In this document: positions 145-17,219 of the stretch, piece after piece
How positions within the stretch are numbered: the first letter of the stretch is position 1
Layout of the letters: each line of letters opens with the position of its first letter
NCBI GenBank assembly: GCA_963842885.1
Contig: CAWJIE010000009.1
Span: 1-17,219, forward strand
DNA from: an uncultured Nitrososphaerota archaeon
Lineage (GTDB): Archaea; Thermoproteota; Nitrososphaeria; Conexivisphaerales; DTJL01
DNA: 17,219 nucleotides
Direction: 5' to 3'
Translations under genes and position numbers: made by a program
Notes under the pieces: model-generated
The model's input: only the letters and a program-made list of their open reading frames with translations
Databases searched by the model: none
Told to the model about the DNA's origin: nothing

Positions 145-232
145 TTAACAAATTGTCCTCAACAACATAAAGATGAGTAGACAGCCCATTTCGCAGGTCC
201 AAGCCCACGTCCGAACTCTTCTGGACACCGAG

Positions 233-699: not shown

Positions 700-708
700 A
701 ACAGTGTA

Positions 709-732
709 ATACTTCAATATCTATTTAAGTAT
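709..732. promoter_or_regulatory. Imperfect 24-bp palindrome (putative ArsR operator) overlapping a TATA-like box between divergent genes
   Basis: ATACTTCAATATCTATTTAAGTAT matches its reverse complement at 20 of 24 positions. The minus strand contains CTTAAATA ~26 nt before the arsR ATG. Confidence 0.65.
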
Positions 733-762
733 AGGACGCCTTCAGTGTGGTGTGCACCGTCA

Positions 763-1182: not shown

Positions 1183-1215
1183 AAGGCCACTCTTGGCAAT
1201 CCCAGCACGCTTTCT

Positions 1216-1574: not shown

Positions 1575-1784
1575 TTCAGCATCTTCTGGTCGATTGAATT
1601 CTCCTCGTGGGGCTCACAACTCACGGCTGGGTACAACGTCTACGTTACGCTCCTGGGCTACGGGCAGTGCATCACGATACTCGCTGGTATCCTCTTCCTA
1701 TACTCACGGTTCAGGATGAGAGGCTCCATGAAGTCCAAGGGTATCGAGCATTTAACAGAACCAGAAACGCCACGCGTAACTTAA
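1572..1784 (+). pseudogene. Startless C-terminal remnant of a membrane protein
   Basis: The open frame reads GFSIFWSIEFSSWGSQLTAGYNVYVTLLGYGQCITILAGILFLYSRFRMRGSMKSKGIEHLTEPETPRVT*, a TM-like segment plus a basic tail. There is no start codon between the upstream TAA (1518) and the TM segment. Confidence 0.4.
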
Positions 1785-1809
1785 AGACTTATAATATTGT
1801 TTCTTGCCT

Positions 1810-2133
1810 ATGGTTGCGCAGAAGAACATGAAGTTCGTAGCTCTGTTATCATTGTTACTACTGGCCGGCGCTCTTTTCATCGTCCCCGCTCATGCTCAGA
1901 CCACTTCAACGGGCTTTGACGAGAAAAGCGCCAACTACCTGTCGGCCGCGATCGCGTTCGCCGGCTCGGCTATCGCTGCTGGATGGGCTATCAGCAAGGC
2001 TGGTTCTGCCGGTCTCGCTGGTTCGGCTGAGAGGCCTGAGATTAGGACAACAGCCATCATCATCTCTGCTCTTGGCGAAGCGCTCGCGATCTACGGGATT
2101 GTAGTTGCGCTGCTGATACTCGGCAAGGTTTAG
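1810..2133 (+). CDS. atpK: A/V-type ATP synthase subunit K (c-ring proteolipid) with N-terminal signal-like leader
   Basis: Gly/Ala-rich hairpin AAIAFAGSAIAAGWAISKAGSAGLAGSAERPE...ALGEALAIYG with the ion-binding Glu. The leader ends in AHA-Q. Start is ATG 1810 or 1828, with AT-rich boxes at 1780-1796. Confidence 0.92.
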   Translation: MVAQKNMKFVALLSLLLLAGALFIVPAHAQTTSTGFDEKSANYLSAAIAFAGSAIAAGWAISKAGSAGLAGSAERPEIRTTAIIISALGEALAIYGIVVALLILGKV

Positions 2134-2476: not shown

Positions 2477-3046
2477 ATGCTCGCCAGCCCGATGCTCTTG
2501 GAGGGTTCCGAATGGGTCATCGTGGTCGTAATCATCGGAGCGCTGCTGATCTTCGGCCCGGATAAGATTCCGCAGATCGCCAAGCAGGTGGGAAGGGCGA
2601 GGGCGGAGTTTGACAAGGCGTCCAATGAAGCCAAGACGATGATGGACACGGCCATGAAGAGCATCGACGAGGAAGCATCGGAGGCTACGAAATCGCTGAG
2701 CGCAACCGCCAACGACATGAAGGCTTCCTTGGAAGGCACGGCCAACGAGATGAAGTCCTCCCTTGACTCAGTGGTCAGCTCCGTTCGGGCTCCGGCGTCT
2801 GCTCTAACCGCCAGCGCTGCCCCAGGCATCCCTCCCAGCTCACCTGCCCCGACCCCAGCCGTGGTCGAGCCTCAGGCTGCTGCGCCCGCATCTCAGGCTG
2901 CTGCGCCCGCACCGACGGCGAGCGAAGTGGACACTGACGCACTCCTGAAATTGGCTCACCGCATGGGCATTGTGACCGACGGAAAGACGAGGGACGAGAT
3001 ATCGGAGGAGATATTCTCGAAGTCCGGCTCACAGGCCAAGACCTAG
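2477..3046 (+). CDS. tatA: Twin-arginine translocase TatA/TatB family subunit, long form
   Basis: EWVIVVVIIGALLIFGPDKIPQIAKQVGRARAEFDKA gives the TM, FG hinge and amphipathic helix. The C-terminus LAHRMGIVTDGKTRDEISEEI is archaeal-type. Adjacent to tatC. Confidence 0.9.
   Translation: MLASPMLLEGSEWVIVVVIIGALLIFGPDKIPQIAKQVGRARAEFDKASNEAKTMMDTAMKSIDEEASEATKSLSATANDMKASLEGTANEMKSSLDSVVSSVRAPASALTASAAPGIPPSSPAPTPAVVEPQAAAPASQAAAPAPTASEVDTDALLKLAHRMGIVTDGKTRDEISEEIFSKSGSQAKT
2705..2770 (+). repeat. 33-bp (11-aa) degenerate tandem repeat in tatA
   Basis: ACCGCCAACGACATGAAGGCTTCCTTGGAAGGC / ACGGCCAACGAGATGAAGTCCTCCCTTGACTCA encode TANDMKASLEG / TANEMKSSLDS. Confidence 0.8.
2871..2911 (+). repeat. 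20-bp exact direct repeat (period 21) in the tatA Pro/Ala linker
   Basis: CTCAGGCTGCTGCGCCCGCA occurs at 2871-2890 and 2892-2911 (PQAAAPA/SQAAAPA). Confidence 0.9.
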
Positions 3047-4075: not shown

Positions 4076-5097
4076 TCATCCGAAGGGCTTCAGGATCTCC
4101 AGGGTCTCCCTAAGCCCAGGGTCCACCCCGGTGAGCTCCTGGTGCCTCTTGAAGAACAGGAAGATCCTGATCATGGGGCCCAGCGTGTTGAAGATGGTCG
4201 CCGTGTGGTGCATCTTCTTCAGGATGAAATCGTATGCGTCGTCATAGACGCTGAACTTCTTCTTGACCTCCCTTTCGTAGTGCCTCAAGGTCATCCAGGT
4301 TGTCCGCCAGTAGCTTGGCGCAGATCATGCTCGGGAGTATCCCTTCCCCAAGGATGGGGAAGACGGTGCCGACGGCCTCCCCCACCCCCACGACGTTCCC
4401 CCTCCTGAAGGGAGTCACGGCCTTCGGAGAGGCCACCCGGATGGGCTTGCCCATCTTCCTCAAGACGTGGTCGGCGGGGTAGTGGTCGAAGAACGTCTTC
4501 ACCCTAGCTTCATGGTGTTTGACCGCGTCGCCGGCGCCGACGTAGGCTTCTCCGTCCCTGAGCGGGAAGTACCACAGGTAGCCCGTGTAGCTGTCGAACG
4601 GCTCCACGTAGAAGTCGTCGAAGGGCATCTTGTCGTATTTCACTTGGTACTGGACGCAGGGGATCACCATGTCCTTCCCCGTGTCGGCCGGCCCGACGAT
4701 CCTCCTGTAGGGGCCGGTCGCGTCGATGACCATGTCATACTTGGCCTCCAGGTCGCCCGGCCTGACGTAGGTCCCAAAGTGGACGTTGGCGCCTTCGGCC
4801 ATGTCCAGGATGAGCCTGGGCTTGTCGAAGGTGGAGAGTTGGGGCGCCCTCATCAGCGTGATTTTGTCGTGGGCGTAGACGTAGATCTTCTTCCCCCTGT
4901 GGAAGAGGTAGTCGTCGTAGTTGAGCCCGATGTCCTTCAAGGAGGGGCTTGATCCCGGCGTATCCCGTCCCCCAGGCGCATGTGCTGGAGAACCGCTCCC
5001 GCGTCTGACCCTCGAAGACCTCCACTTCATGCTTCTGGCGAAGGAGGGCCGCGAGGTAGCTGCCGGAGGGACCCAGACCCGCTATGGCGATCCTCAA
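4076..5097 (-). CDS. Geranylgeranyl-reductase-like NAD(P)/FAD-dependent oxidoreductase; +1 frameshifts at ~4941 and ~4283
   Basis: Rossmann start MRIAIAGLGPSGSYLA, then CAWG, IDATG, GYLWYFP and VGEAVGTVFPILGEGI. Removing one base at each site joins three track ORFs into 339 aa. Confidence 0.82.
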
Positions 5098-5139
5098 TCA
5101 GGCCACTCCTCCCTTCGATGTGAGCTTCGAAAAGGGGCC

Positions 5140-5190
5140 CATTATATATATTATCATATCGCGCGTTCTATCCCTGATAAATTTAAATGG
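5140..5190. promoter_or_regulatory. Divergent archaeal promoter region (reductase / nuo operon)
   Basis: AT-rich island in GC-rich DNA, with ATTATATATATTA at ~5141-5153 and AAATTTAAAT at ~5178-5188. Confidence 0.6.
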
Positions 5191-5236
5191 CCGTCCAGAT
5201 GACCACACGTGAGAGCTGCGGGGGTCATCTGCGAGC

Positions 5237-5605
5237 TTGTTTGGCGCTGACCAAGGCCTTTACTGGTTCATCGTCTTCGCAGTGCTCGCCCTCGTATCGG
5301 GGCTCCTGTTCCTGATCATACCGATGGTCTTCGCGCCGCGCAACCGGAGCGCCCTGAAGGAGGAGAGCTTCGAAGCCGGCCAGCTCCCTCCGGGGGCCAA
5401 GAGGATCAGGTTCGCCCTCCAGTACTACGCCTACCTGCTTCTCTTCTTGGTCTTCGACGTCACCATCATGATTCTCTTCGTGTGGGGCTACGCCTTCTTC
5501 TCGGCGGGCCGGTATGGCTTCGTCTACCCCCTGATCCTGCTCCTCGTCCTCATCCCCCCTCTGATTTACACGGTGAAGCTCTCCAAGGCAGTGGACATGT
5601 GGTAG
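5237..5605 (+). CDS. nuoA: Complex I-like subunit A
   Basis: Three TMs, FEAG loop, QYYAYLLLFLVFDV motif and C-terminal W. TTG start. Confidence 0.92.
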   Translation: MFGADQGLYWFIVFAVLALVSGLLFLIIPMVFAPRNRSALKEESFEAGQLPPGAKRIRFALQYYAYLLLFLVFDVTIMILFVWGYAFFSAGRYGFVYPLILLLVLIPPLIYTVKLSKAVDMW

Positions 5606-5607
5606 AG

Positions 5608-6732
5608 ATGGCTGAGACACCGCGTGGAGACTTCCTGAAGACCTTCCTCGTCTTCGCCTCCATCGCTATGGTCGCAGCCGTCGCCGTGCTCCTCTCGTTG
5701 ATATACCAGCCCCTCCTCTCGATCCTTTCCTACATCTTCAAGAGCCCTTCCAGGCTGCTCGTGGATCCGCTGTTCAAGACCCTGGTCTTCCCGGGGCTCG
5801 TCTATGCCGGCCTTGTGGCGTACGTCGCCATCTGGGGCGAAAGGAAGTTCGCGGCCAAGGTGCAGAACAGGGTGGGACCGCTCTACGCCGGCGCCCTCCC
5901 CGAAGGGATACTGCAGAACATCGCTGACCTGCTCAAGATCCTCTTCAAGGAGATCATCATACCGCGGGAGACGGACAAGCCCATCTTCATCATGGCCCCC
6001 GTGGCGGCTTTCGTCATAGGGGCCCTCCCGGTCGTCCTGGTGCCCTATTCGCCCACCTACGTCATCTTCGACTTCCCCCTCAGCCTCCTCCTGTTCTTCG
6101 TCTTCACGGCCTTCTACCCCCTGGTCCTCCTCCTGGCTGGCTGGAGCAGCAACAACAAGTTCTCCTTCATCGGGAGCCTTCGCGCCCTCTACCAGCAGGC
6201 GTCCTACGAGGTGCCGCTCTTCCTGGCCGCCCTGGCGCCGGTCATGCTGGCTGGCTCCTTCCGTCTGATCGACATCGGCAACGCCCAGAGCGGGTTCTGG
6301 TACGTGCTCGTCGCCCCCATCTCCGCGATCGTCTTCTTCACCGCTCTGCTGGCCGAGCTGGAGAAGTTCCCCTTCGATATACCCGAGGCCGACAGCGAGC
6401 TAGTGGCGGGCTGGCTGACGGAGTACTCGGGTGTCCCCTACCTCCTCTACCAGTTCGCAGCCTACATCAAGATGGTGGCCTACGCGGGGCTCTTCGTCGT
6501 CCTGTTCCTCGGCGGCTGGAGCGGCTTCTCCTTCCTCCCCGGCGAGTGGTGGATGGTGATCAAGGTGGCCCTGGTCGTGCTCGTAATCATCTCCACCCGG
6601 GCCTTCTTCCCTAGGATAAGGATCGACCAGCTTCTCAGCGCCGGCTGGACCAAGCTCATCCCGCTGGCCGTGCTCAACATAGTGCTCCTGGTCCTGCTTC
6701 AGTACGTCGGCCTCCTGGCGTTTCTCAGGTGA
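5608..6732 (+). CDS. nuoH: Complex I-like subunit H
   Basis: ERKFAAKVQNRVGP, GILQNIADLLKILFKE, GWSSNNKFS, SYEVP, PFDIPEADSELVAG and PRIRIDQL. ATG lies 2 nt after the nuoA stop. Extra N-terminal hydrophobic segment. Confidence 0.95.
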   Translation: MAETPRGDFLKTFLVFASIAMVAAVAVLLSLIYQPLLSILSYIFKSPSRLLVDPLFKTLVFPGLVYAGLVAYVAIWGERKFAAKVQNRVGPLYAGALPEGILQNIADLLKILFKEIIIPRETDKPIFIMAPVAAFVIGALPVVLVPYSPTYVIFDFPLSLLLFFVFTAFYPLVLLLAGWSSNNKFSFIGSLRALYQQASYEVPLFLAALAPVMLAGSFRLIDIGNAQSGFWYVLVAPISAIVFFTALLAELEKFPFDIPEADSELVAGWLTEYSGVPYLLYQFAAYIKMVAYAGLFVVLFLGGWSGFSFLPGEWWMVIKVALVVLVIISTRAFFPRIRIDQLLSAGWTKLIPLAVLNIVLLVLLQYVGLLAFLR

Positions 6733-6738
6733 CATGAA

Positions 6739-7430
6739 TTGGACTACCTCCTCCCCCTGATAATCCTCGCATTCACCTCTCTGATGGCGCTGCTGGCGCT
6801 GGAGAGCAAGTCGCTGGTGTACGGCGCCATCTCCCTCGGCGGGTTCTTCCTCGGCCTTTCGATCTTCTTCTTCTATCTGAACCTCTTCTATCTCGCCATC
6901 TTCCAGCTCCTGGTCTACGTGGGGGCCGTCTCCGTGCTGATCCTCTTCGCCGTCATGGTCATCGGCGAGCCTTCGAAGGCCCCCTCCCGGAGGGCGATTC
7001 AGCGGGTTCGGCTTCCTCGGAGGCCTGCTCCTGGCCCTGGCCGCGGACTTCATGGGGCTCGTCCTGATCTTCTCCTTCCTCAACGTCACGCTAGACCCCA
7101 TATTCCAGTCCCTCCTGTACGTCGGCCCCATCGTCGTGTTCTTCGCGTTCGTCATCCTGTTCCTCGGTGAGCCGAAGGAGAGGAGCCGTTACAGGTTCAA
7201 GGCCTTCGGGGTCCTCGGGGCGTCTCTGGTCTTCGCGAGCTTCATCGGCGTGCTTTCGTACCTGGGCTCCCTTCCCACGTTCTCCGGAAACGTGGCCTTC
7301 AACATCGTGGACCTCGCCGATAGCCTCCTAAACGACTACGGTCTCCTGATCGTGGTCCTGGGGCTTCTCCTGGCCGCCGCCGCCTTCGGGGCCGTCGCCC
7401 TGGCAAAGAAGGAGGCTGAGGAACGAGTGA
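6739..7430 (+). CDS. nuoJ: Complex I-like subunit J with internal duplication; +1 frameshift at ~6980-6994; as sequenced, reads in frame into nuoK
   Basis: AIFQLLVYVGAVSVLILFAVM (TM3) and C-terminal LLNDYGLLIVVLGLLLAAAAFGAVALAKKE. The end at TGA 7428-7430 is inferred by assuming a second extra base near 7420. Confidence 0.82.
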
Positions 7431-7735
7431 ACGAGCTGCAGTTCTTCATCGCCGCTTCGGCGCTCTTCTTCGCCATTGGCGTGTACGGCCTCCTTTCCAA
7501 GAAGAGCGCCATCAGGATCCTCTTCTCCATCGAGATAATCATCAACGCCGCCAGCCTGAACATCGCCGCCTTCGCGCGGTTCTCCCCCTACAACCTTGGA
7601 TCGGCGCAGTCCATCACCATCTTCATCATAGCCCTCGCCGCCGCCGAAGCAGCCGCAGGCCTGGCCCTGATCATAGAGGCCTTCCGAATCAGGGGCAAGG
7701 TCGACGTCAACGAAATGGACGAGCTCAAGGGATAG
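7427..7735 (+). CDS. nuoK: Complex I-like subunit K
   Basis: LFFAIGVYGLL, LFSIEIIINAASLN and AAAEAAAGLA, with both conserved Glu. GTG start is preceded by GGAGG. Confidence 0.9.
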   Translation: MNELQFFIAASALFFAIGVYGLLSKKSAIRILFSIEIIINAASLNIAAFARFSPYNLGSAQSITIFIIALAAAEAAAGLALIIEAFRIRGKVDVNEMDELKG

Positions 7736-7745
7736 GTGGAGAGAG

Positions 7746-9240
7746 ATGGACTTCTGGCTCCTGTTGGCAGTATTCCTCCCGGTGCTCGGCGCGGTGGCCG
7801 CCTCCTTATCGAAGGAGAGGAGGGAGGCCGTCTCCATTTCGGCGATCACCACCGGCATCTCGCTGCTGTTCCTCTGCGTCGCGGCATGGTCGGGCGGCGT
7901 GTTCTCCTCAGGAGGCTCGACCTATTCGGAGCTCTACAACTGGGCGCCACTCGGCAAGGCAGGGTTCAGGCTCGACGGGCTGAGCCTCCCCTTCGCCCTC
8001 ATAATCGGGGTGCTGTCGTTCGTCATAACCTTCTATTCTTCGCCCTACATGGCCCACAAGTTCCATGAGGACGGCTCCGAGAAGTGGGGCCTCTTCTTCA
8101 CGCTCTACCAGCTCTACTTCTCCGGGATGTTGGGCGCCGTCCTGGCCACCAACCTGATCGAGTTCTACATCTTCTTCGAGCTCATGCTGATCCCCTCGTA
8201 CTTCCTCATCGCCGAATTCGGGTACGGAGAGAAGGGAAGGATCTCCTTCATGTACTTCATCTGGACCCACTTCGGCGCCCTCGTCATGCTGGCCGGGCTC
8301 ATCTACCTCGGGTTTTCAGCTGGCTCCTTCGACCTGTCGGTCCTGTCGACCCAGGCGGGCCTTCTGCCGGTGGCGGTCCAGCTATTCGTGTCGGTTGCCC
8401 TCTCCGTCGGCCTCTCCGTCAAGATGGCCGCCTTCGGCCTCCACGTCTGGCTGCCGCACGCGCACGCCGAGGCACCCACGCCCATCAGTGCCCTGCTCTC
8501 CCCCGCGATGATAGGAATCGGGGGATACGCCCTCCTCCGGTTCATGGTCACTCTGCTTCCTTCCGGCTACTCCATCGTCTCACCCTACCTGCTGTTCTGG
8601 GGCTTCATCACAATCCTCTACGGCGGGCTCATGGCCCTCGCGCAGGACGACATCAAGCGGCTCCTGGCCTACTCCAGCATCAGCCAGATGGGCTACATCT
8701 TGGTGGGCATAGCGTCCGCCAACGTGCTGGGCTACGGAGGCGCCACACTGCAGTACGTCGCCCATGGCCTGGGGAAGGGGACGCTCTTCATGGTGGCCGG
8801 CGTGCTCATCATGCAGACGGGCACGCGTTCGATAGGCAAGCTGGGCGGGCTCGCAAAGAGGATGCCGTTGACGGCCACCCTAGCTCTCATCGGCTTCCTC
8901 ACCATAATGGGCGTCCCACCGACCGCCGGGTTCATCTCCGAGTTCTTCGTGTTTCAGGGAGCCTTCTCTACGGCCAGCCCTCGGCGGCTCCACCCTCAGG
9001 TTCGCCATAACCTTCCTCGCGATGCTCGCCTCCCTCCTCACCTTCGGCTACGCCCTCTGGACCATGAAGCGCATCTTCTTCGGGAAGCTCCCCGAATCCC
9101 TCTCTGGCGCCAGGGACCCTTCGATGATGGCTCTGGCTCCGATGTTCGTCCTCTGCATTCTCTCCATCATCATAGGGATCTACCCCTTCCTCCTCGACCG
9201 GGCCGTGGAGTTCCTTCGCATCGCCCTGGGAGGTGCCTAG
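7746..9240 (+). CDS. nuoM: Complex I-like antiporter subunit M, copy 1; +1 frameshift at ~8975
   Basis: DGLS, FYIFFELMLIP, KMAAFGLHVWLPHAHAEAPT, DIKRLLAYSSISQMG and GFISEF. Removing one base near 8974-8976 links to TLRFAITFLAMLASLLTFGYALW, giving 497 aa. Confidence 0.88.
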
Positions 9241-11316
9241 ATGGTGGACAGCGGCGTCTTCGCATGGCTCGTATGGATACTCCCCATGGCTGGTGCCCTC
9301 CTCACCCCGCTCTTCGCCAGGCTGGGGCACAAGGTCAGGGACTACGCCGCGGTCTCCTTCGCCCTGCTCTCCGCCCTGGCCTCGACGTCTCTCCTCCCGG
9401 TGCTGCTCGGCGGCCACATAGTCGACAGCCAGGTCCCCTGGTTCCTCGGCCTCGACGCCGGAGTCCTGGCCGACCCCCTCAGCGTCCTCATCGGGACCGT
9501 GGTCTCCTGGGTCTGCTTCTTGATTATGGTCTACAGCCTGGACTACATGCACGGTGACGAAGGCCTCACGCGCTATTGGTTCTTCATGAACCTTTTCATC
9601 GGGAGCATGCAGCTCATCATCTTCTCCGACAACCTCCTCCAGCTGTTCTTCGGTTGGGAGGGCGTGGGTCTCTGCAGCTACGCACTCATCGGATTCTGGT
9701 ACACCGACGAGAAGTCCCGTTGGGTGGGCACCGAAGGCGACACCGCCCTGGGTCAGCCTCAGGCCTACTCCCCCACTCACGCCGGGATGAAGGCATTCAT
9801 CACCACGAGGGTCGGCGACATCTTCACCTTGGTGGGCATCTTCATCATCTACGCCTACGCGGGCACCTTCCAGTACCTCCGCCTTTCGGCTGACACTTCG
9901 TGGGCGTCGGCCATGCACGCGTCAGGTCTGCTTCTCCCCACCATGCTCCTCCTCCTCGGGGGCGCCATCGGGAAGTCCGCGCAGTTCCCACTCCATGAAT
10001 GGCTCCCCGACGCCATGGCTGGCCCCACATCGGTCTCCGCATTGATCCATGCCGCCACGATGGTCAAGGCCGGCGTCTACTTCGTCGCGAGGCTGGCGCC
10101 CATCTTCTTCATCCTCCCCTTCGCTGAGAAGGGTGACTTCTTCACGGCCGTCGCCCTCATCGGAGGGTTCACTGCGTTCCTGGCGGCCTCCCAGGCGCTG
10201 GTCAACAAGGAACTGAAGAAGGTGCTGGCGTACAGCACGGTCTCCCAGATCGGCTACATGATGCTGGCGATTGGAGTCGCCGGCCTGTCGACCAGCTTTC
10301 TCGAAGGCTACGTCGCCTCCATCTTTCAACTCTTGTCGCACATGCTCTTCAAGGCTGGTCTCTTCATGGCTGCCGGCGTCCTCATCCACGTCACGGAGAC
10401 AAAGTACATGAACGAGATGGGTGGGCTCAAGACCAATGTTCGGCGCACCTTTTTCGCGTTCATCATACTGGCCCTTGCCCTCGCGGGCATGCCGCCGCTG
10501 AGCGGTTTCTGGAGCAAGGACTCCATCTTCGCAGCCGCCCTAGGGGCCCCGGCCAGCCTGGTCACGGAATCCGTCTACCTTGCCGCCAGCGTCACCGCTC
10601 TGATCACCGCCTTCTATAGCATCAGGATGGTGGGTATGATCTTCTTTGGCCCCGGCAGGGAGGAAGGTGAGCACCTCCATGACTCCCGCCTCCTGGAGTT
10701 CTCCACCTATGGGATACTAGCAGCTGCTACGCTCGCCATCGGCTTCGTCGGCCCCCTGTTCGAGAACTCCCTGTTCTCGGCGCTCAGCTCCTACGTCGGC
10801 GCCTTCGGGTTGGTCGAGAGCGGAGCCTTCGTGTTCAACCTCTCGGCCGTGGCGACCTCCCTCACGGTCTTCCTCGTCGGCGCCTTCCTTGCCTATCCGT
10901 TCTATGTTTCACGGAGGATGAGCTCAGACAGGCTCATCTCGGGGAGCCCCTTCCTCCAGGGCATCTACAACTTCCTTTGGCACAGATGGTACCTCGACGC
11001 CATCTACTACAAACTCTTCGTCAACCCCGTCATGAGCGCCTCGCTCTGGGGCTACCGGGTCATCGAGCAGGGCTTCTTCGACAGGATCAACGGAGGCGTG
11101 GCCGTCGGCGCCCGAAGCGTATCTACCGCCGGCGACTGGTTCGACCGACACATCATCGACGGGTTCGTCAACGGAGTGGGACGCGTCGCGGGCGGCTTCT
11201 CCTCCCGCTTACGGAAGCTCCAGACGGGGGTCGCCGAGTCCTACCTCTTCTTCATCCTGATAGGTCTGATCCTGTTGCTGCTCCTGCTGACCTTCTACAC
11301 TGGAGGCGTGCCATAG
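9241..11316 (+). CDS. nuoL: Complex I-like antiporter subunit L with extended lateral helix
   Basis: GWEGVGLCSYALIGFW, GKSAQFPLHEWLPDAMAGPTSVSALIHAATMV, HMLFKA, GFWSKD and LRKLQTG. Confidence 0.96.
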   Translation: MVDSGVFAWLVWILPMAGALLTPLFARLGHKVRDYAAVSFALLSALASTSLLPVLLGGHIVDSQVPWFLGLDAGVLADPLSVLIGTVVSWVCFLIMVYSLDYMHGDEGLTRYWFFMNLFIGSMQLIIFSDNLLQLFFGWEGVGLCSYALIGFWYTDEKSRWVGTEGDTALGQPQAYSPTHAGMKAFITTRVGDIFTLVGIFIIYAYAGTFQYLRLSADTSWASAMHASGLLLPTMLLLLGGAIGKSAQFPLHEWLPDAMAGPTSVSALIHAATMVKAGVYFVARLAPIFFILPFAEKGDFFTAVALIGGFTAFLAASQALVNKELKKVLAYSTVSQIGYMMLAIGVAGLSTSFLEGYVASIFQLLSHMLFKAGLFMAAGVLIHVTETKYMNEMGGLKTNVRRTFFAFIILALALAGMPPLSGFWSKDSIFAAALGAPASLVTESVYLAASVTALITAFYSIRMVGMIFFGPGREEGEHLHDSRLLEFSTYGILAAATLAIGFVGPLFENSLFSALSSYVGAFGLVESGAFVFNLSAVATSLTVFLVGAFLAYPFYVSRRMSSDRLISGSPFLQGIYNFLWHRWYLDAIYYKLFVNPVMSASLWGYRVIEQGFFDRINGGVAVGARSVSTAGDWFDRHIIDGFVNGVGRVAGGFSSRLRKLQTGVAESYLFFILIGLILLLLLLTFYTGGVP

Positions 11317-11317
11317 G

Positions 11318-12796
11318 TTGGCGATCCCCATCCTCAGCCTGATGATCTTCCTGCCGGGAGTCGGAGGGCTGATCGTCTACCTTGCGGGACGAATGGTCAC
11401 CAGGGCTGCGAAGTATCTCGCCCTCTCCATCACCCTCGTCGAAGGGGTGCTGGCCTTCGTCGCCTACTTCACCGTCTTCACTGCAGAAGGACCGTTCGGC
11501 ATCTCATCCTTCGTCCTCCAGGAGCAGTACCCGTGGATAGGCTCTCTCGTCACATATCATGTGGGCATAGACGGGCTAAGCGGGCCCCTCATTCTCATGT
11601 CCGTCCTCCTCACCGCCTTGGCCACGGCAGGCTCCTTCTTCGAGATCAAGGAGAAAGAGTCCTCCTACTACGCCCTGATGATGTTCTTCCTCGCCTCCGC
11701 GGTGGGGGTCTTCGCCTCCTTGAACCTAATACTGTTCTACTTCTTCTGGGAGGCCTCGTTCATCCCCATGTTCTTCTTCATCGGCATATGGGGAGGACCC
11801 AACAGGAAGTACGCCTCCGTCAAGTTCCTCCTCTTCACATACTCGGGCAGCGTCGCGATGCTGCTGGGCTTCCTCCTCCTCTACTTCATGACCCCCGGAC
11901 AGTCCTTCGACCTCGTGTCCCTCCTTAATTCGAGCATCCCCGGCTGGCTCCAGGCCGGCGCCTCCGCCCTCACCTTCCTGGGCTTCGGGGTCAAGCTCCC
12001 GGTCTTCCCCCTGCACACCTGGCTCCCTGACGCCCACGTTGAGGCTCCCTCCCCCATCAGCGTGCTCCTGGCGGGCATCCTTCTCAAGATGGGAGGGTAT
12101 GGCTTCCTCAGGTTCAACCTCGAGCTCTTCAGATCGGCCGCCTTCCAGTACGCCTGGGTCTACATCGCCATCGGTCTGATCACCATGTTCTATGGTGCCA
12201 TCGTTGCCCTGATGCAGAAGGACTTCAAGCGGATGGTGGCACTGACCTCCATCAACCACATGGGCTTCGTCCTCCTCGGGGCGTTCGCCGGCCTCGCGGC
12301 TGGCTCCGTCAGCTTCGGCATATCTGGGGCGGTCTTCCAGATGTTCAACCATGCCTTCGCCATCGGCGCCCTCTTCATGCTGGCCGGCTTCATCGAGCAT
12401 GGAACAGGGACCAGGGACCTCACGGTCGTTCGCGGCCTGCGCAGCGTGACCCCCAGGATGGGTGTCATGCTGATACTGGCGGCCCTGGCGGGGATGGGTG
12501 CCCCCTTGTTCAGCAGCTTCCTCAGCGAATTCATGGTCCTCCTGAGCGGCATCACCTACAGCCCCTATCTCTGGGTCGCGGTCCTCGTCCCCGGCATAAC
12601 TGCTGCGTACCTCCTTTGGATGCTCTGGCGGGCGGTCCTCAGCGGACCGACGCCGGGTTCCGAGTATCACGACATCTCCAGGAAGGAGGTACTCTACCTC
12701 GCCCTCTTCCTGATCCCCCTGGTCGTGCTTCTACTCGTCCCGGGCCTCCTTCTCTCCCCCATATCACAGTTCACGAAGGCGGTGTTTGGAGGCTAG
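11318..12796 (+). CDS. nuoM: Complex I-like antiporter subunit M, copy 2
   Basis: GIDGLS, FYFFWE, KLPVFPLHTWLPDAHVEAP, LLAGILLKMGGYG, DFKRMVALTSINHMG and FLSEF. Confidence 0.94.
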   Translation: MAIPILSLMIFLPGVGGLIVYLAGRMVTRAAKYLALSITLVEGVLAFVAYFTVFTAEGPFGISSFVLQEQYPWIGSLVTYHVGIDGLSGPLILMSVLLTALATAGSFFEIKEKESSYYALMMFFLASAVGVFASLNLILFYFFWEASFIPMFFFIGIWGGPNRKYASVKFLLFTYSGSVAMLLGFLLLYFMTPGQSFDLVSLLNSSIPGWLQAGASALTFLGFGVKLPVFPLHTWLPDAHVEAPSPISVLLAGILLKMGGYGFLRFNLELFRSAAFQYAWVYIAIGLITMFYGAIVALMQKDFKRMVALTSINHMGFVLLGAFAGLAAGSVSFGISGAVFQMFNHAFAIGALFMLAGFIEHGTGTRDLTVVRGLRSVTPRMGVMLILAALAGMGAPLFSSFLSEFMVLLSGITYSPYLWVAVLVPGITAAYLLWMLWRAVLSGPTPGSEYHDISRKEVLYLALFLIPLVVLLLVPGLLLSPISQFTKAVFGG

Positions 12797-12802
12797 ATTG
12801 GA

Positions 12803-14242
12803 TTGCTGATCACCATAGCCACGCTCGCAATACCCGCCCTCCTGATACCTGTGTTGGCAGCGCTGGGCATGAAGCAGAAGCGGTTCCCCGAGATCGTCAC
12901 CGTGGTGGCCCTATTCCTCGCCATGCTCCAGCTCCCATTCGTGCTTCTATCTAGCTCCTTCCCCAACACTCAATCCTGGATCTGGTCCTACCCGCACAAC
13001 CTCCTAAGCTTCGACGGCATTTCGTTCGTCTTCAGCGTCACGGTGATCCTCGTCGCCATGATGGTGGCGATCGCCTCCTCCACCATGCTGGATGGAGACG
13101 AAAACAAGCCAGTCTACTACTCCCTCCTCCTCTTCGCCACGATAGGAATGATCCTTGTCTCTTCGACGGCGGACCTGATCTTCCTCCTGATCTCATGGGA
13201 GCTCATGACCGTCCCCAGCTTCCTGCTCGTTGCGCTGAAGAAGCGGGACCCCAAGGCCAACGAAGCTGCCATCAAGTTCTTCCTGGCGGCGGCCCTCTCC
13301 TCCGCCCTGATCCTCTACGGGATCTCCCTCTTCTACGGAGTGACCGGGTCGACCTCGCTCTACGCGCTCCAGAGCAGCCTGGCCAGCCTCCCGCCGTCGG
13401 GCTCCTCCATCATACTCCTGGCGACGGCCTTCCTTCTGGGAGGCTTCGCCGTGAAAATGGCCCTGGTGCCCTTCCACTTCTGGCTTCCGGACACTCTCGA
13501 GGGAGCGTATCCCCCAGTCGCCGCCTTGCTGGCAGCCGGCTCCAAGAAGGCGGGCTTCGCGGCCGCGCTCAGGGTCGTCGTCCTGCTCGTCCTGGTGAGC
13601 CGCTTCGCCTCGGTCTCCCCCTCATGGCAGCTGGCACTTGGCATCATGGCCGCCATCACCATGACCTGGGGGAACGTCGCCGCCCTGACGCAGAAGAGCC
13701 TCCCACGGCTCCTCGCCTACTCCAGCATAGCCCAGGCCGGTTACATGATGATCGGTCTGGCCGTGCAGGGGACCAGCGGCGCTCTGTTCGGCCTGATCGG
13801 TCTCCTCCTCGCCGTCCTGTTTCACGCCGTGATGAAGGGTAGCGCCTTCATCTCGCTGAGAAACATAGGCACTTCGATGGACGACGTGGTGGGCCTCTAC
13901 AAGAAGGCGCCCCTGATGGCCCTCGGCTTCGCCGTTTCTCTCTTCGCGTTGGCCGGACTGCCTCCTCTCAACGGCTTCTGGAGCAAGCTGTTCCTGTTCA
14001 TGGGCGCCGTCCAGGGAGGCATGGCGTGGTTGGCCGCAATCGCCCTGGTCAACAGCGCCGTCGCCCTGGGATACTACAGCTACGTCGCCAAGAAGATGTT
14101 CTTCGACGACCCGCTGACTCCGGGCCCCGCCGTCCAGCAGCCGGACGTCCTCGCCGTCACCCTCTTCGCCCTGGTGTTCATAATAGCGACCGGCCTCTAT
14201 CCTGAACCTTTGATTCGGCTGATAACCCTGGTGGCCCCGTAG
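12803..14242 (+). CDS. nuoN: Complex I-like antiporter subunit N
   Basis: WELMTVPS, EAAIKFF, KMALVPFHFWLPD, RLLAYSSIAQAGY and LAGLPPLNGFWSK. Confidence 0.95.
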   Translation: MLITIATLAIPALLIPVLAALGMKQKRFPEIVTVVALFLAMLQLPFVLLSSSFPNTQSWIWSYPHNLLSFDGISFVFSVTVILVAMMVAIASSTMLDGDENKPVYYSLLLFATIGMILVSSTADLIFLLISWELMTVPSFLLVALKKRDPKANEAAIKFFLAAALSSALILYGISLFYGVTGSTSLYALQSSLASLPPSGSSIILLATAFLLGGFAVKMALVPFHFWLPDTLEGAYPPVAALLAAGSKKAGFAAALRVVVLLVLVSRFASVSPSWQLALGIMAAITMTWGNVAALTQKSLPRLLAYSSIAQAGYMMIGLAVQGTSGALFGLIGLLLAVLFHAVMKGSAFISLRNIGTSMDDVVGLYKKAPLMALGFAVSLFALAGLPPLNGFWSKLFLFMGAVQGGMAWLAAIALVNSAVALGYYSYVAKKMFFDDPLTPGPAVQQPDVLAVTLFALVFIIATGLYPEPLIRLITLVAP

Positions 14243-14245
14243 CTC

Positions 14246-15082
14246 TCAGAAGTACTCGACGACCAGCTTCTCCAGCTTCTCTAGGCTCGCAGAAGCCGGC
14301 AGCCCGCGCAGTATCGCCAAGGCGGAGCTTCCATACTCGTCGGCGGCTGCCTCCACCTTCTTGATCCTGTCCTCACCCGTCACTTCCAGGGAGTTGATGA
14401 GCTCCCCTGGCTTCTCGATGTCAGCCAAGTCATCCCTCAGCTGATAGGCCATCCCCAGCTTCATTCCGAACTCGCTCACCGTAGGAGCCAGCTGTTTCCT
14501 GGCAGAAAGCGCCGCGCCGACCGTAGCGGACGCCCTGAAGAGGGAGGCGGTCTTGAGCTCAAGGACCTCGATGTAGTTCTGCCATGACACGCCTGAAGGG
14601 TTCCGGGTCAACCTGCCCTCCATCTCCTCCCCGGCCGACATCTCTACGGCCGCCCTAGACAACTCGCGGCCGACAGCCCTCTCGTCATAGAGGGAGGCCA
14701 CTTCGAGGATGACGCCAAGGACGAAGTCGGCGGACAGAAGGGCCGAGTCGACGCCGAACATCTGATAGTATGGCGGCTTCTCGCGGCGCACTGACTCCTT
14801 GTCGATGATGTCGTCGTGAATCAGCGAAACCGTATGGAGAAGCTCGATGGCTGAAGTCGCAAGGATCGGGTCCTCGGCACCCGCCCCGAGCGCTTCGTTC
14901 ACCAGGAGGACGACCAGCGGTCTCAACCTCTTCCCTCCCTGCAACGAATATGCCATCGGATCGTGGAGAGGATGGGTCGAGTGCTTCATCATGAGCTGTT
15001 TCAAGCCTGCGTCGATCCTTTCGATGTAGGCTTTATGCTCCTTCAGAAATCGCACTTCCTGACTTATCGCTTCTTCAACCAA
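14246..15082 (-). CDS. Trans-polyprenyl diphosphate synthase
   Basis: GGKRLRP, FARM SLIHDDIID..RR, KTASLF and SARM AYQLRDDLAD. A TATA-like TTATAAATA lies on the minus strand at ~15140-15148. Confidence 0.93.
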   Translation of the reverse strand: MVEEAISQEVRFLKEHKAYIERIDAGLKQLMMKHSTHPLHDPMAYSLQGGKRLRPLVVLLVNEALGAGAEDPILATSAIELLHTVSLIHDDIIDKESVRREKPPYYQMFGVDSALLSADFVLGVILEVASLYDERAVGRELSRAAVEMSAGEEMEGRLTRNPSGVSWQNYIEVLELKTASLFRASATVGAALSARKQLAPTVSEFGMKLGMAYQLRDDLADIEKPGELINSLEVTGEDRIKKVEAAADEYGSSALAILRGLPASASLEKLEKLVVEYF

Positions 15083-15218
15083 AGCTGGAATCTGGCTCCG
15101 AGGACCTGGCTTGCCTGTCTCAGAGTAACTTGGCCTCCAGTATTTATAATGTTCCGGCAGTTCTTATGCATCTCCTCTCAATGCTCCTCTGCCGACGCTT
15201 CTCCGAAAGACACAAGCA

Positions 15219-15300
15219 GGGAGCTGTCTCCGACCTCGCCTCCCGCTTGAGTCCCGGTTGGCCGGGCGAGGTTCGACAACCCTACGGAGACACGATTCCC
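15219..15300 (-). ncRNA. Candidate small structured RNA
   Basis: Nested inverted repeats GGGA/TCCC, TGTCTCCG/CGGAGACA and ACCTCGCC/GGCGAGGT. A TATA-like box lies ~25 nt upstream on the minus strand and a U-rich tract follows. No family recognised. Confidence 0.35.
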
Positions 15301-15357
15301 AGGCTCTCGTTCAGCTTACCAATTCTTATATTAGTGGTCTGTTATACTTCATATGGC

Positions 15358-15741
15358 ATGCGGCCGCCATGCGAGGTTGTCATCAAGTACGTTCTCCCTG
15401 CATTCCGCTGCAGCGTCGCTCGTTCTCTTGTGACCGAATACGGTTTCACACAGGTGAAGACAGCTTCGGCTCTAGGGACGACCCAGGCGGCAATCAGCTA
15501 CTATCTGGGCGAGCGCAGAGGCAGCAGGATCAGAGGTTTCGAGGAGAACGAGCTGGTGAGGTCAGCCGCTGTCGACGTCGCGAAAGAATTGGCGACGGGT
15601 CAGCTCGGGAATGTCGACGCGACAGCCAAGTTCTGCCAGCTCTGCTCCAAGCTGCGCTCGACTGACGCCTTCTGCCAGTTCCACAGGTCGGTCGAAGAGG
15701 TGGACCCGGGATGCAACACATGCAAGGTAACAGGCTGCTAG
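15358..15741 (+). CDS. Archaeal HTH transcriptional regulator (COG2522-like) with Cys-rich C-terminus
   Basis: MRPPCEVVIKYVLPAFR...GFTQVKTASALGTTQAAISYYLGERRG, then CQLC, CQFH and CNTC. TTATATTA at 15326-15333 supports ATG 15358. Confidence 0.85.
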   Translation: MRPPCEVVIKYVLPAFRCSVARSLVTEYGFTQVKTASALGTTQAAISYYLGERRGSRIRGFEENELVRSAAVDVAKELATGQLGNVDATAKFCQLCSKLRSTDAFCQFHRSVEEVDPGCNTCKVTGC

Positions 15742-15751
15742 TGTAACCCAC

Positions 15752-16546
15752 ATGCGCCGAAGACCGATCCCCTTCAAGTTCAAAGTCCTGAGGCCTGAGC
15801 CAGACAGGGAGTTGATCTGCCTTCCGAAGCTGGGTGAATCCGATCTGGGAGAGCTTGTTTCTCGATTGAAAGGGCTGGGCTTCCACGAGCCCAAGGTCAT
15901 CAACGATTGGCCAAAGGTTCTGAGGATCGCCGGGGAATCGGCCATCCTTAGACTCATGCCCCGGGGACTATTGATGGGCCCGCTGGGGACCTTTGAGCGT
16001 CTCGGCCCGTCGCTCGATATCCGCCTCCGCCACGAGCCCGCGGTTCAACTTCCCTTGTCCTGGGTCGACAACGACTACCAGAGCTTGGTTCCGATCGAAG
16101 GCGGGCTACTCCTCCACGTCAGGGGTAGGCACACGCCTTCGCCGAGACGGTTCTCGGCCGAGGTCTCCAAGATGGGCTCCGCGCTATCGGCGGACGAAGC
16201 TCTGATGATACTGGCCACCGTCGAAGCGTGCGGACCCGAGACCATCGAGCTCCTTGCCACCGGTCCCGGCACCTCGGTCGACCTGTCGCAGCCAATCCGC
16301 CTCGAAGGCAAGGGCTTCCTCCATCACATAGAACTGAAGGAGGAGGCGTTCCTCTCGACGGCTGATGAGCTCCTGAAGCGGAGCCTCGACGGTGTCTGCC
16401 CATTTTCACCCCTCCCCGACTCTACGGTCATACTGAAAGGCGCGTCTCTCCCCTCCACTTCGAAGGGGCTTGAAGACGTCGTGGCGACCCTGGAGAACTG
16501 GGTTTCAGACATCAGCTACTTTGCCACGTCCCTCAGGCAAAGCTGA
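15752..16546 (+). CDS. Hypothetical protein (264 aa)
   Basis: Long ATG-started ORF 10 nt after the regulator, with globular composition. No recognised motif. Confidence 0.7.
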   Translation: MRRRPIPFKFKVLRPEPDRELICLPKLGESDLGELVSRLKGLGFHEPKVINDWPKVLRIAGESAILRLMPRGLLMGPLGTFERLGPSLDIRLRHEPAVQLPLSWVDNDYQSLVPIEGGLLLHVRGRHTPSPRRFSAEVSKMGSALSADEALMILATVEACGPETIELLATGPGTSVDLSQPIRLEGKGFLHHIELKEEAFLSTADELLKRSLDGVCPFSPLPDSTVILKGASLPSTSKGLEDVVATLENWVSDISYFATSLRQS

Positions 16547-16699: not shown

Positions 16700-16740
16700 C
16701 TAGCACTTCAGGTCTAGTGCCCTTACTGCCGAGAAAGTCC

Positions 16741-16750
16741 GCTTATAAGC
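16741..16750 (+). promoter_or_regulatory. Palindromic TATA-like box upstream of the integrase
   Basis: GCTTATAAGC is a perfect 10-bp palindrome 21-30 nt before ATG 16771. Confidence 0.55.
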
Positions 16751-16770
16751 AAACCCGCACGGTATGTGTC

Positions 16771-17219
16771 ATGCCCGTCAGGACAGACATCCACAGGTAC
16801 TCGGCGCGCCTTGAAGTAGCATTACGAGGCCTGGAGAAAGCATCGATACCGGTTGAAGACAAGCTGTCGATCAGGGAATTCAGCGAGGTGCTGAGGTCAG
16901 AGGGCCTGAACCTCGGGCGCGTAGCCAAGTACGTCTATCACATGAAGACCGTCGCGGGGAAGCTGAGCGAATCGGGCACGACTCTGAACGGCGCCGATCC
17001 AAGCTCCCTGAAGGGCTTCATGCGATGGGTCAACGAATCTGGCGTCTACAGGCCTTACACCAAGAGGGATTTCATCGTCGTAATGAAACGCTTCTACCAG
17101 TGGCTCAGGGCGCCCCCGGACGAGTATTCGAGCTGGCGAAAGAAGCACACCTACCCGCCGGAGGTGGACGACTTCTCATCCACCATCAAGCTGAACGAGA
17201 GGGTGCTGCCCGACGACCT
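16771..17219 (+). CDS. Tyrosine recombinase/integrase, N-terminal part (runs off the right edge)
   Basis: Not in the ORF track. Hand translation MPVRTDIHRYSARLE...EGLNLGRVAKYVYHMK...YRPYTKRDFIVVMKRFYQWL...YPPEV...VLPDD resembles archaeal integrase N-terminal domains. It starts 71 nt after a tRNA. Catalytic residues lie outside the window. Confidence 0.8.
   Translation, partial: MPVRTDIHRYSARLEVALRGLEKASIPVEDKLSIREFSEVLRSEGLNLGRVAKYVYHMKTVAGKLSESGTTLNGADPSSLKGFMRWVNESGVYRPYTKRDFIVVMKRFYQWLRAPPDEYSSWRKKHTYPPEVDDFSSTIKLNERVLPDD

What the first reader, a model, noticed from the sequence alone, without database searches (positions are those of the whole stretch)
5237..14242. Membrane-arm-only complex I-like operon (A-H-J-K-M-L-M-N) with no hydrophilic subunits
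Seen: nuoA abuts nuoH (2-nt gap) and nuoH abuts nuoJ (6-nt gap), so nuoB, C, D and I are cleanly absent from their usual positions. No nuoE/F/G or hydrogenase genes are present, and both flanks are unrelated genes. Known: even 11-subunit complexes need B, C, D and I for the quinone site and FeS wire, and Mrp antiporters lack NuoA and NuoH. Inference: either the soluble arm is encoded and regulated elsewhere, allowing interchangeable input modules, or this is a stand-alone ion-translocating machine between Mrp and complex I. The expanded M, L and J subunits make it the best candidate for an undescribed system here.
Basis: partly seen in the sequence, partly recalled or inferred. Interest (0 to 1): 0.85.

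Follow-up and report, generated by a model that had tools for sequence, protein, structure and literature searches.

The report
Split-off membrane arm of complex I
This is a real, conserved operon in an uncultured soil-type archaeon that encodes only the membrane half of respiratory complex I, in the known form with an extra proton pump, and the missing electron-handling half is most likely encoded elsewhere in the genome.

Summary
Window 5237-14242 (+) encodes nuoA-H-J-K-M'-L-M-N. The A/H gap is 2 nt and the H/J gap is 6 nt. No NuoB/C/D/I/E/F/G or hydrogenase domain appears in 80 of 81 ORFs scanned.

The same order and the same flanking genes occur in three independent Nitrososphaerota MAG contigs with 79-90% NuoH identity. 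Misassembly is therefore excluded. dN/dS is 0.06-0.2.

The "expanded" subunits have explanations:
- **M'** is a second NuoM-family pump.
- **NuoL** carries the ~26-residue lateral-helix insertion typical of "2M" complex I.
- **NuoJ** carries a lineage-specific duplication of its TM2-3 hairpin.

NuoH keeps the canonical loops that face the quinone module. I therefore read this as the P-module operon of a 2M complex I whose nuoBCDI genes lie elsewhere. That could not be checked, because no further genome scan was allowed.

In this window nuoJ and M' (and tatC and a reductase gene) are broken by window-specific single-base insertions. These are probably sequence errors, and they also create a false J-K fusion.

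Moderate interest; a new variant of a known kind.

The parts
5098..5236 (.). Divergent intergenic region between the GGR-family gene (-) and nuoA (+). It holds AT-rich boxes at about 5142-5160 and 5178-5187 that are candidate archaeal TATA elements.
   Evidence: Sequence. The TTTAAAT and TTATATAT contexts are shared with L001 and L003 in the blastn alignments. The sigma-70-type scan is not meaningful for an archaeon. Promoter function is inferred, not shown.
5237..5605 (+). nuoA (122 aa, TTG start)
   Evidence: Pfam Oxidored_q4, E 3.4e-18. The best PDB match is E. coli NuoA, E 6e-12. It is 79-89% identical to the orthologs in L001-L003. It scores below the NCBIfam equivalog cut-offs.
5608..6732 (+). 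nuoH (374 aa), with an N-terminal extension of about 45 aa that holds extra hydrophobic segment(s)
   Evidence: Pfam NADHdh, E 3.5e-95. NCBIfam NF004741 NuoH scores 332 bits against a cut-off of 305. It aligns to E. coli NuoH residues 24-316, E 5e-57, with conserved loop motifs.
6739..7430 (+). nuoJ, the long form (229 aa in relatives) with a duplicated TM2-3 hairpin. In the window it is broken by single-base insertions near 6985 and 7425.
   Evidence: Pfam Oxidored_q3 matches both pieces. The frames are shown and the insertions. Internal repeat: residues 31-81 against 98-148, 37% identity, E 6e-12. The roughly 66-aa insertion relative to the 163-167-aa forms is shown.
7427..7735 (+). nuoK (102 aa, GTG start overlapping the J stop as GTGA)
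   Evidence: Pfam Oxidored_q2, E 6.7e-22. The L002 ortholog scores 84 bits on NF004320 NuoK against a cut-off of 57.
7746..9240 (+). M', a second NuoM-family antiporter-like subunit (497 aa in relatives). In the window it is broken by a single-base insertion near 8977.
   Evidence: Pfam Proton_antipo_M plus Proton_antipo_N. The L002 ortholog scores 346 bits on TIGR01972 NDH_I_M against a cut-off of 263.8. It is 30% identical to the operon's own NuoM. All 120 of the 120 best database hits share Gly at the TM8 position where the window's own NuoM, NuoN and NuoL have Lys in the alignment.
9241..11316 (+). nuoL (691 aa) with an insertion of about 26-27 residues in the C-terminal lateral helix, and a 19-aa loop insertion near residues 157-175
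   Evidence: TIGR01974 NDH_I_L scores 488 bits against a cut-off of 407.5. The AlphaFold2 model has mean pLDDT 91.4, one helix spanning 582-660 and then a TM helix at 665-686.
11318..12796 (+). nuoM (492 aa)
   Evidence: TIGR01972 scores 434.5 bits against a cut-off of 263.8. The conserved Glu/Lys positions are present.
12803..14242 (+). nuoN (479 aa)
   Evidence: Pfam Proton_antipo_M. The best NCBIfam match is TIGR01770 NDH_I_N at 302.5 bits, below the cut-off of 332.6.

Best explanation
The region is the membrane-arm (P-module) operon of a "2M"-type, 11+1-subunit complex I-like enzyme of a non-ammonia-oxidiser-like Nitrososphaerota lineage. The related records are named Conexivisphaerales or Nitrososphaerales archaeon.

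**What the subunits are inferred to do**
- NuoA, H, J and K form the quinone-proximal membrane stem and the E-channel.
- Four antiporter-like subunits (N, M, the extra M', and L) form the pumping arm.
- The NuoL lateral helix is lengthened by about 26 residues to reach across the extra subunit.

**How I think it works**
- The electron-transfer and quinone-reducing module (NuoB, C, D, I) is needed for function.
- It is most likely encoded at another locus of the same genome, so this is a split nuo gene set and not a free-standing machine.

**Shown**
- Gene content, order and junctions.
- Conservation in relatives and purifying selection.
- The 2M hallmarks.
- Canonical NuoH loops.

**Inferred**
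- That a Q-module exists elsewhere.
- That the assembled enzyme moves one more proton per cycle, as proposed in the literature for 2M complexes.
- That the window's frameshifts are sequence errors.
For: 1. **Family assignments.** All eight genes are Nuo families by Pfam. NuoH, NuoK, M', NuoL and NuoM exceed NCBIfam cut-offs for Nuo models. Fpo, Mrp and hydrogenase-4 models score lower or far below their cut-offs.
2. **Synteny.** The order atpK-tatA-tatC-GGR(-)-nuoA-H-J-K-M'-L-M-N-polyprenyl synthase(-)-orf203-orf264 is found in L002 and L003. L001 shares it as far as its contig reaches.
3. **Selection.** dN/dS is 0.055-0.21 in all 18 pairwise comparisons of 7 genes.
4. **2M hallmarks.**
   - M' is a second NuoM-family gene.
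   - The NuoL segment between the WYLD and QTG motifs is 77 residues in the window.
   - Among the 59 aligned NuoL sequences, 16 have 47-52 residues, 39 have 75-85, 2 have more than 100 and 2 have fewer than 40.
   - The model shows one 79-residue helix at 582-660.
   - The published description is a 26-residue HL insertion plus a second NuoM (PMC9040806 passages).
   - Heterotrophic marine Thaumarchaeota are reported to have a full 2M complex I without NuoEFG (PMC7300363 passages).
5. **NuoH.** It aligns end to end with E. coli NuoH and NDH-1 NdhA. The first cytoplasmic loop, the TM5-6 loop and the C-terminal Arg/Asp motif are retained. 75 positions are at least 95% identical across 121 Nitrososphaerota-type NuoH sequences, and these include those loops. 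NuoA keeps its TM1-2 loop motif.
6. **Split nuo clusters exist.** L004 (Mucilaginibacter) has nuoH-I-J-K-L-M-N directly after bamA, two ompH genes and a racemase gene, with no nuoABCD in the 10 kb held upstream. A partial nuoAHJKLMN operon is reported in actinomycetes (PMC6676996 passage).
Against: - No nuoB/C/D/I was seen. It is absent from the window.
- It is also absent from the 17 further ORFs of at least 100 aa that I picked by eye from the list for the non-syntenic upstream flanks of L002 and L003. I left out ORFs that overlapped a longer one.
- The rest of those genomes could not be searched.
- No paper that I could read states the nuo gene content of this lineage. Kato 2019, Lin 2015, Beam 2014, Reji 2020 and Chadwick 2018 are not held. 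Supplements are closed, so the per-genome gene tables of PMC10640624 could not be seen.
- In this window nuoJ and M' are frameshifted. If the insertions are real, the operon is non-functional in this organism.
- M' lacks the TM8 lysine that the operon's own NuoM, NuoN and NuoL have at that alignment column. Its pumping competence is therefore assumed, not shown.
- NuoA has Thr where E. coli NuoA and two NDH-1 NdhC chains have Glu in the FDVE motif.
Confidence: 0.7

Rival explanations
1. It is an additional or alternative membrane arm. The genome also carries a complete nuo operon, and this A-H-J-K-M'-L-M-N cluster is a second paralogous P-module. It would then parallel the partial nuoAHJKLMN operon of Salinispora, Streptomyces and Kocuria, and could share or compete for the one Q-module.
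For: The actinomycete partial operon has the same subunit content and exists as an extra copy (PMC6676996 passage). Nitrospirales often carry two or more NUO copies, including a 2M copy (PMC12342949 passage).
Against: - The NuoH identities fall smoothly from 95% to about 44%. Hits named Conexivisphaerales (79, 61 and 57%) come first, then hits named Nitrososphaerota or Nitrososphaerales. That pattern fits vertical descent of the lineage's main NuoH.
- No second, more canonical Conexivisphaerales-named NuoH appears among the 120 listed hits.
Confidence: 0.12
2. It is a stand-alone ion-translocating machine, intermediate between Mrp and complex I, that works without any NuoB/C/D/I-type module.
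For: The cluster is tight (gaps of 0-10 nt), self-contained and conserved with non-respiratory neighbours in four genomes. No Q-module lies within about 10 kb.
Against: - NuoH retains the cytoplasmic loops that in solved structures line the quinone cavity and contact the hydrophilic arm. They are as conserved here as in other Nitrososphaerota NuoH.
- No Mrp-specific families (MrpE/F/G-type domains) are present.
- Mrp and hydrogenase models score well below their cut-offs.
- From general knowledge, recalled and not from a call, every characterised NuoH homolog (NdhA, FpoH, MbhM, HycD, EchB) works with NuoD/NuoB homologs.
Confidence: 0.05
3. In the organism of this window the cluster is a decaying pseudogene array, and the frameshifts in nuoJ (two) and M' are real.
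For: Window-specific single-base insertions occur at about 6985, 7425 and 8977. Further ones break tatC (about 3701) and the GGR-family gene (about 4940).
Against: - All of the breaks are single-base insertions.
- They hit unrelated genes, including tatC.
- There are no premature stops, deletions or elevated dN in the broken genes. M' part a has dN/dS 0.06-0.11.
- The three relatives are intact at every site.
- This pattern fits consensus errors of the assembly better than decay.
Confidence: 0.1
4. It is a misassembly or a deletion artefact that removed nuoBCD and nuoI.
For: None beyond the unusual order.
Against: The same A|H and H|J junctions occur in three independent contigs from different records. 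A further 1294-bp contig protein carries both NuoH and NuoJ Pfam domains (P0252).
Confidence: 0.01

Closest known systems
2M respiratory complex I (Chadwick et al. 2018, known to me through passages in PMC9040806, PMC7300363 and PMC12342949; the paper itself is not held)
   Same: It has a second NuoM-family subunit in the nuo cluster and an insertion of about 26 residues in the NuoL lateral helix. It has no NuoEFG. The type is reported in Thaumarchaeota (heterotrophic marine lineage) as well as in Nitrospira.
   Different: Here the cassette lacks nuoB, C, D and I, so nuoA abuts nuoH and nuoH abuts nuoJ. NuoJ carries an extra TM hairpin in this sub-lineage. I could not see how the published 2M cassettes are ordered.
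Partial nuoAHJKLMN operon of marine actinomycetes (Salinispora, Streptomyces, Kocuria; PMC6676996 passage)
   Same: It is a membrane-subunit-only nuo cluster without nuoBCDI and nuoEFG.
   Different: The actinomycete cluster is bacterial and is described as an extra copy beside a full operon, and the passage names seven subunits (A, H, J, K, L, M, N), so no second M. Copy number here is unknown, and homology between the two was not tested.
Split nuo/ndh gene sets (for example the Mucilaginibacter locus L004 fetched here; cyanobacterial and plastid ndh genes, recalled)
   Same: The subunits of one enzyme are encoded at separate loci.
   Different: The split point differs. L004 keeps nuoI with the membrane genes and lacks nuoA upstream. 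Here nuoA stays with the arm and nuoI is gone.
Mrp (Mnh/Pha) cation/proton antiporter
   Same: It has MrpA/D-like antiporter subunits and a NuoK-like subunit, and no redox module in the operon.
   Different: Mrp has no NuoH or NuoA, and it has MrpE/F/G. Here the antiporter-like genes score as NuoL/M/N and fall far below the Mrp cut-offs.

Membership tests
Complex I / NDH-1 membrane arm (NuoA, H, J, K, L, M, N) | All seven membrane subunit families are present in one cluster | tested here: met
   Pfam PF00507, PF00146, PF00499, PF00420 and PF00361 (x4) with PF00662. The NCBIfam Nuo models are the best hits.
Complex I / NDH-1 membrane arm (NuoA, H, J, K, L, M, N) | NuoH keeps the conserved cytoplasmic loops (first loop, TM5-6 loop, C-terminal Arg/Asp motif) seen in solved complex I | tested here: met
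   Alignment to E. coli NuoH 24-316 and to three NdhA chains. These positions are at least 95% conserved in 121 related NuoH sequences.
Complex I / NDH-1 membrane arm (NuoA, H, J, K, L, M, N) | Conserved charged residues of the antiporter-like subunits (TM5 Glu, TM7 Lys, TM8 Lys/His, TM12 Lys/Glu) | tested here: inconclusive
   These residues are present in NuoL, M and N. M' has the TM5 Glu, TM7 Lys and TM12 Glu, but Gly at the TM8 position. The helix labels are recalled, not from a tool.
Complex I-like enzyme (whole, 11-subunit core) | A Q-module (NuoB, NuoC, NuoD, NuoI) is encoded in the same genome | not testable with these tools
   It is absent from the window and from the L002/L003 flanks.
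2M complex I | A second NuoM-family gene sits within the nuo cluster | tested here: met
   M' scores 346 bits on TIGR01972 against a cut-off of 263.8 (L002 ortholog). It lies between nuoK and nuoL in all four loci.
2M complex I | An insertion of about 26 residues in the NuoL lateral helix HL | tested here: met
   The segment is 77 residues here, against 47-52 in 16 of 59 aligned NuoL sequences. 39 of 59 fall in the 75-85 class. The model shows one helix at 582-660.
2M complex I | The cassette also carries nuoB, C, D and I. I assume this for the published cassettes; PMC12342949 mentions separate NuoC and NuoD in the Nitrospira 2M complex. | tested here: not met
   nuoA abuts nuoH and nuoH abuts nuoJ.
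Mrp antiporter | MrpE, MrpF and MrpG subunits and an MrpA with a C-terminal MrpB-like domain; no NuoH or NuoA | tested here: not met
   No such Pfam families occur in any scanned ORF, while NuoH and NuoA are present. MrpA/D NCBIfam models score 143-289 bits against cut-offs of 542-1117.
Group 4 membrane-bound hydrogenase / Fpo | A [NiFe] large and small subunit, or FpoF/FpoO with Fpo-type membrane subunits | tested here: not met
   No hydrogenase domains are present. FpoH scores 229 against 475, FpoK 86 against 145 and FpoL 335 against 1050 bits.
Actinomycete-type partial nuoAHJKLMN operon | A membrane-only nuo cluster that coexists with a complete nuo operon | not testable with these tools
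   The gene content matches. Coexistence with a full operon cannot be checked.

The most novel reading that the evidence does not exclude
In this Nitrososphaerota clade the four-pump (2M) membrane arm is a genetically autonomous module. It is either used without a NuoBCDI module, or it docks to more than one alternative hydrophilic module encoded elsewhere. On that reading the detachment of nuoBCDI and the new NuoJ hairpin would reflect a changed coupling interface.
Probability: 0.06. Interest if true: 0.8.

Novelty: new variant of a known kind. Interest (0 to 1): 0.35.

Why it matters
If the split-operon reading is right, this is an ordinary respiratory enzyme with an unusual gene layout.
- It adds an archaeal case of a P-module-only nuo operon.
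- It extends the 2M (four-pump) complex I to another uncultured, soil/peat-type Nitrososphaerota lineage.
- It gives two small structural leads. One is a NuoJ with a duplicated TM2-3 hairpin, the helix pair that contributes to the E-channel. The other is an M' clade that uniformly lacks the TM8 lysine.

The finding matters more only if whole-genome searches show no Q-module. That would mean a NuoH-containing arm working without its redox partner, which is unknown so far.

For annotators, the practical point is that the window's J-K "fusion" and its truncated J and M' are frameshift artefacts.

Tried and rejected
**Rejected readings**
- **Misassembly:** rejected, because three independent contigs share the junctions.
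- **Natural J-K fusion:** rejected. It results from a window-specific 1-nt insertion 2 nt before the K start, and relatives have an overlapping GTGA stop/start.
- **NuoJ split into J1/J2 genes as in haloarchaea (recalled):** rejected. Relatives have one 229-aa ORF.
- **M' as a NuoL or MrpA/D-type subunit:** considered because Pfam finds Proton_antipo_N. NCBIfam places it best in NDH_I_M.

**Searches that led nowhere**
- Looking for nuoBCDI near the cluster in relatives: none was found within the loci held.
- Literature on this lineage's complex I: searches found no statement. PMC10640624 and its preprint mention NADH only for transhydrogenase. Five relevant papers are not held.
- A search for 'nuoAHJKLMN' gave 12 papers. 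I read passages from 4, and only PMC6676996 describes a membrane-only operon.
- The sigma-70 promoter scan is not informative for an archaeon.

**Not done**
- No complex-prediction job was sent. A NuoH-NuoD stand-in pair would pass by likeness to solved structures and would not show that the genome encodes NuoD.
Full report
**What is there**

The window (GC 0.53-0.63) carries eight co-directional genes from 5237 to 14242. Gaps between them are 0-10 nt, or the genes overlap. Pfam assigns them as follows:
- NuoA (PF00507)
- NuoH (PF00146, E 3.5e-95)
- NuoJ (PF00499, in two pieces)
- NuoK (PF00420)
- four antiporter-like proteins (PF00361)

NCBIfam refines the last four as a NuoM-family protein that I call M' (TIGR01972, 346 bits, cut-off 263.8, scored on the intact L002 ortholog), NuoL (TIGR01974, 488 against 407.5), NuoM (434.5 against 263.8) and NuoN (302.5, just below 332.6). 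NuoH (332 against 305) and NuoK (84 against 57) pass equivalog cut-offs. NuoA and NuoJ do not. Fpo, Mrp and hydrogenase-4 models score lower or far below their own cut-offs.

I scanned 80 of the 81 ORFs of at least 60 aa in six frames. None matches NuoB, C, D, I, E, F, G or a hydrogenase.

**The window's sequence has frame errors**

Three-frame translation and DNA alignments to relatives show single-base insertions, present only in the window, at these positions:
- about 3701 (tatC)
- about 4940 (GGR-family gene)
- about 6985 (nuoJ, inside a C run)
- about 7425 (2 nt before the nuoK start)
- about 8977 (M')

They split nuoJ and M'. The one near 7425 also places the J tail in frame with K, which makes a false J-K fusion. 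In L001-L003, J and M' are single ORFs, and the J stop overlaps the K start as GTGA.

All of the breaks are insertions, they hit unrelated genes, and the broken genes otherwise look selected (M' dN/dS 0.06-0.11). I therefore take them as assembly or consensus errors. I give the real-pseudogene reading about 0.1.

**Relatives and the misassembly test**

- three archaeal MAG contigs, whose records are named Conexivisphaerales or Nitrososphaerales archaeon, with NuoH identities of 90, 85 and 79%
- one Mucilaginibacter locus with 36% identity

tblastn shows the same order in L002 and L003: atpK-like, tatA, tatC, GGR-family (-), nuoA-H-J-K-M'-L-M-N, polyprenyl synthase (-), orf203, orf264. L001 shares this order up to the end of its 8.5-kb contig. 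The junctions are therefore real and conserved.

dN/dS is 0.055-0.21 in all 18 pairwise comparisons. No Nuo Q-module family appears in 17 ORFs of at least 100 aa that I picked by eye from the non-syntenic upstream parts of L002 and L003.

**The "expanded" subunits**

*M' and NuoL together are the signature of 2M complex I.*
- Passages in PMC9040806 describe the Nitrospira 2M complex as having an additional NuoM and a 26-amino-acid insertion in the NuoL amphipathic helix.
- PMC7300363 reports a full 2M complex I, without NuoEFG, in heterotrophic marine Thaumarchaeota.
- PMC12342949 also describes the 2M complex.
- The original paper (Chadwick 2018) is not held.

*NuoL.* I aligned the window's NuoL with 2 orthologs and 56 representatives. 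I chose these from the 150 best of the representative search, keeping near full-length single-stretch hits of 591-733 aa. The segment between the WYLD and QTG motifs falls into discrete length classes:
- 47-52 residues in 16 of 59
- 75-85 residues in 39 of 59, including the window at 77
- more than 100 residues in 2 of 59
- fewer than 40 residues in 2 of 59

The AlphaFold2 model (mean pLDDT 91.4, but 63-79 over residues 590-660) shows one helix from 582 to 660, followed by a terminal TM helix.

*M'.* It is only 30% identical to the operon's own NuoM. It belongs to a wide clade: hits at 53-60% identity are named Bathyarchaeia, Thaumarchaeota and an Acidoferrales bacterium. In that clade 120 of 120 hits have Gly where the operon's own NuoM, NuoN and NuoL have the TM8 lysine in the alignment, while TM5 Glu (119 of 120), TM7 Lys and TM12 Glu are kept.

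*NuoJ.* It is 229 aa in the relatives. Residues 31-81 and 98-148 are an internal repeat of the TM2-3 hairpin (37% identity, E 6e-12). Of 26 database hits, 11 are the long form (223-233 aa, at least 60% identity) and 10 are 163-167 aa. An alignment of four long and five short forms shows a clean insertion of about 66 residues. The duplication is therefore recent and lineage-specific.

**Does the arm need a Q-module?**

NuoH aligns over its whole core with E. coli NuoH (E 5e-57) and with NdhA chains. The first loop, the TM5-6 loop and the C-terminal Arg/Asp motif are conserved. Across 121 sequences (the window plus the 120 best hits, 44-95% identical), 75 positions are at least 95% identical, and they include those loops. 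NuoA keeps its TM1-2 loop motif, but has Thr for the Glu of the FDVE motif.

In solved enzymes these loops line the quinone cavity and touch NuoB/D. That structural role is established knowledge that I recall, not a call result. Their retention under strong selection argues that a NuoB/D-type partner exists.

Split nuo sets are not exotic:
- The bacterial locus L004 has nuoH-I-J-K-L-M-N right after bamA, two ompH genes and a racemase gene.
- A membrane-only nuoAHJKLMN operon is described in actinomycetes as an extra copy (PMC6676996 passage).

**What could not be done**

- I could not search the rest of any genome for nuoBCDI.
- No readable paper states the nuo content of this lineage.
- Supplements are closed. 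The per-genome gene tables of PMC10640624 may hold the answer.

**Verdict**

The most likely reading (0.7) is the P-module operon of a 2M complex I-like enzyme whose nuoBCDI genes lie elsewhere. The rivals are:
- an extra arm beside a full operon (0.12)
- real decay in this organism (0.1, not exclusive of the others)
- a stand-alone machine (0.05)
- misassembly (0.01)

It is a new variant of a known kind. The layout and the NuoJ duplication are new to my searches. The enzyme type is not.

Noticed in passing
window ~3701, ~4940, ~6985, ~7425, ~8977: Five window-specific single-base insertions break tatC, the GGR-family gene, nuoJ (twice) and M'. All three relatives are intact at these sites. 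None was seen in nuoA, H, K, L, M, N or the polyprenyl synthase gene.
   Followed up: yes
window 1804-2133 (+): A lone ATP synthase c/K-type subunit gene (Pfam ATP-synt_C; below the NCBIfam cut-offs) with a signal-peptide-like N-terminal extension. It sits beside tatA and tatC in the window and in L001-L003, with no other ATPase genes nearby.
   Followed up: partly
window 4242-5097 (-) and 14246-15082 (-): A GGR-family FAD reductase (divergent from nuoA) and a polyprenyl diphosphate synthase (convergent with nuoN) flank the operon in the window, L002 and L003; L001's contig ends before the synthase. These are isoprenoid genes that could serve quinone or lipid side chains. Both score below the NCBIfam cut-offs, so chain length and substrate are unknown.
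   Followed up: partly
window 15130-15741 and 15752-16546 (+): Two conserved ORFs with no Pfam or NCBIfam match (orf203, with a Cys-rich C-terminus, and orf264). Both are syntenic in L002 and L003.
   Followed up: no
window 16717-17217 (+) and window 1-1747: Synteny with L002 and L003 ends at about 16700, just before an integrase-like N-terminal domain (PF02899, E 0.0014). It starts only at about 1747. The first 1.7 kb (arsR-type regulator, DUF1801, a glyoxalase fragment) is not shared. These may be boundaries of a variable region or a mobile element.
   Followed up: partly
L004 7721-17917: The Mucilaginibacter contig has nuoH-I-J-K-L-M-N directly downstream of bamA, two ompH genes and a racemase gene, with no nuoABCD in the 10 kb held upstream. 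This is another split nuo layout with a different break point. Its NuoL is 685 aa.
   Followed up: partly
proteins P0316 and P0374 (NuoL representatives): Two NuoL homologs carry a lateral-helix segment about 52 residues longer than the canonical class, which is twice the 2M insertion. They may belong to complexes with two extra pumps.
   Followed up: no
M' clade (P0121-P0240): All 120 best homologs of the extra NuoM-family subunit have Gly where the window's own NuoM, NuoN and NuoL have the TM8 lysine in the alignment. They also have a Lys in the TM11 motif, as NuoL and NuoN do. Named members span Bathyarchaeia, Thaumarchaeota and an acidobacterial MAG.
   Followed up: partly
window 2477-3046 (+): TatA with a long Ala/Pro/Ser-rich C-terminal tail (189 aa in total). 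The tail is the most indel-rich stretch in the alignments to relatives.
   Followed up: no
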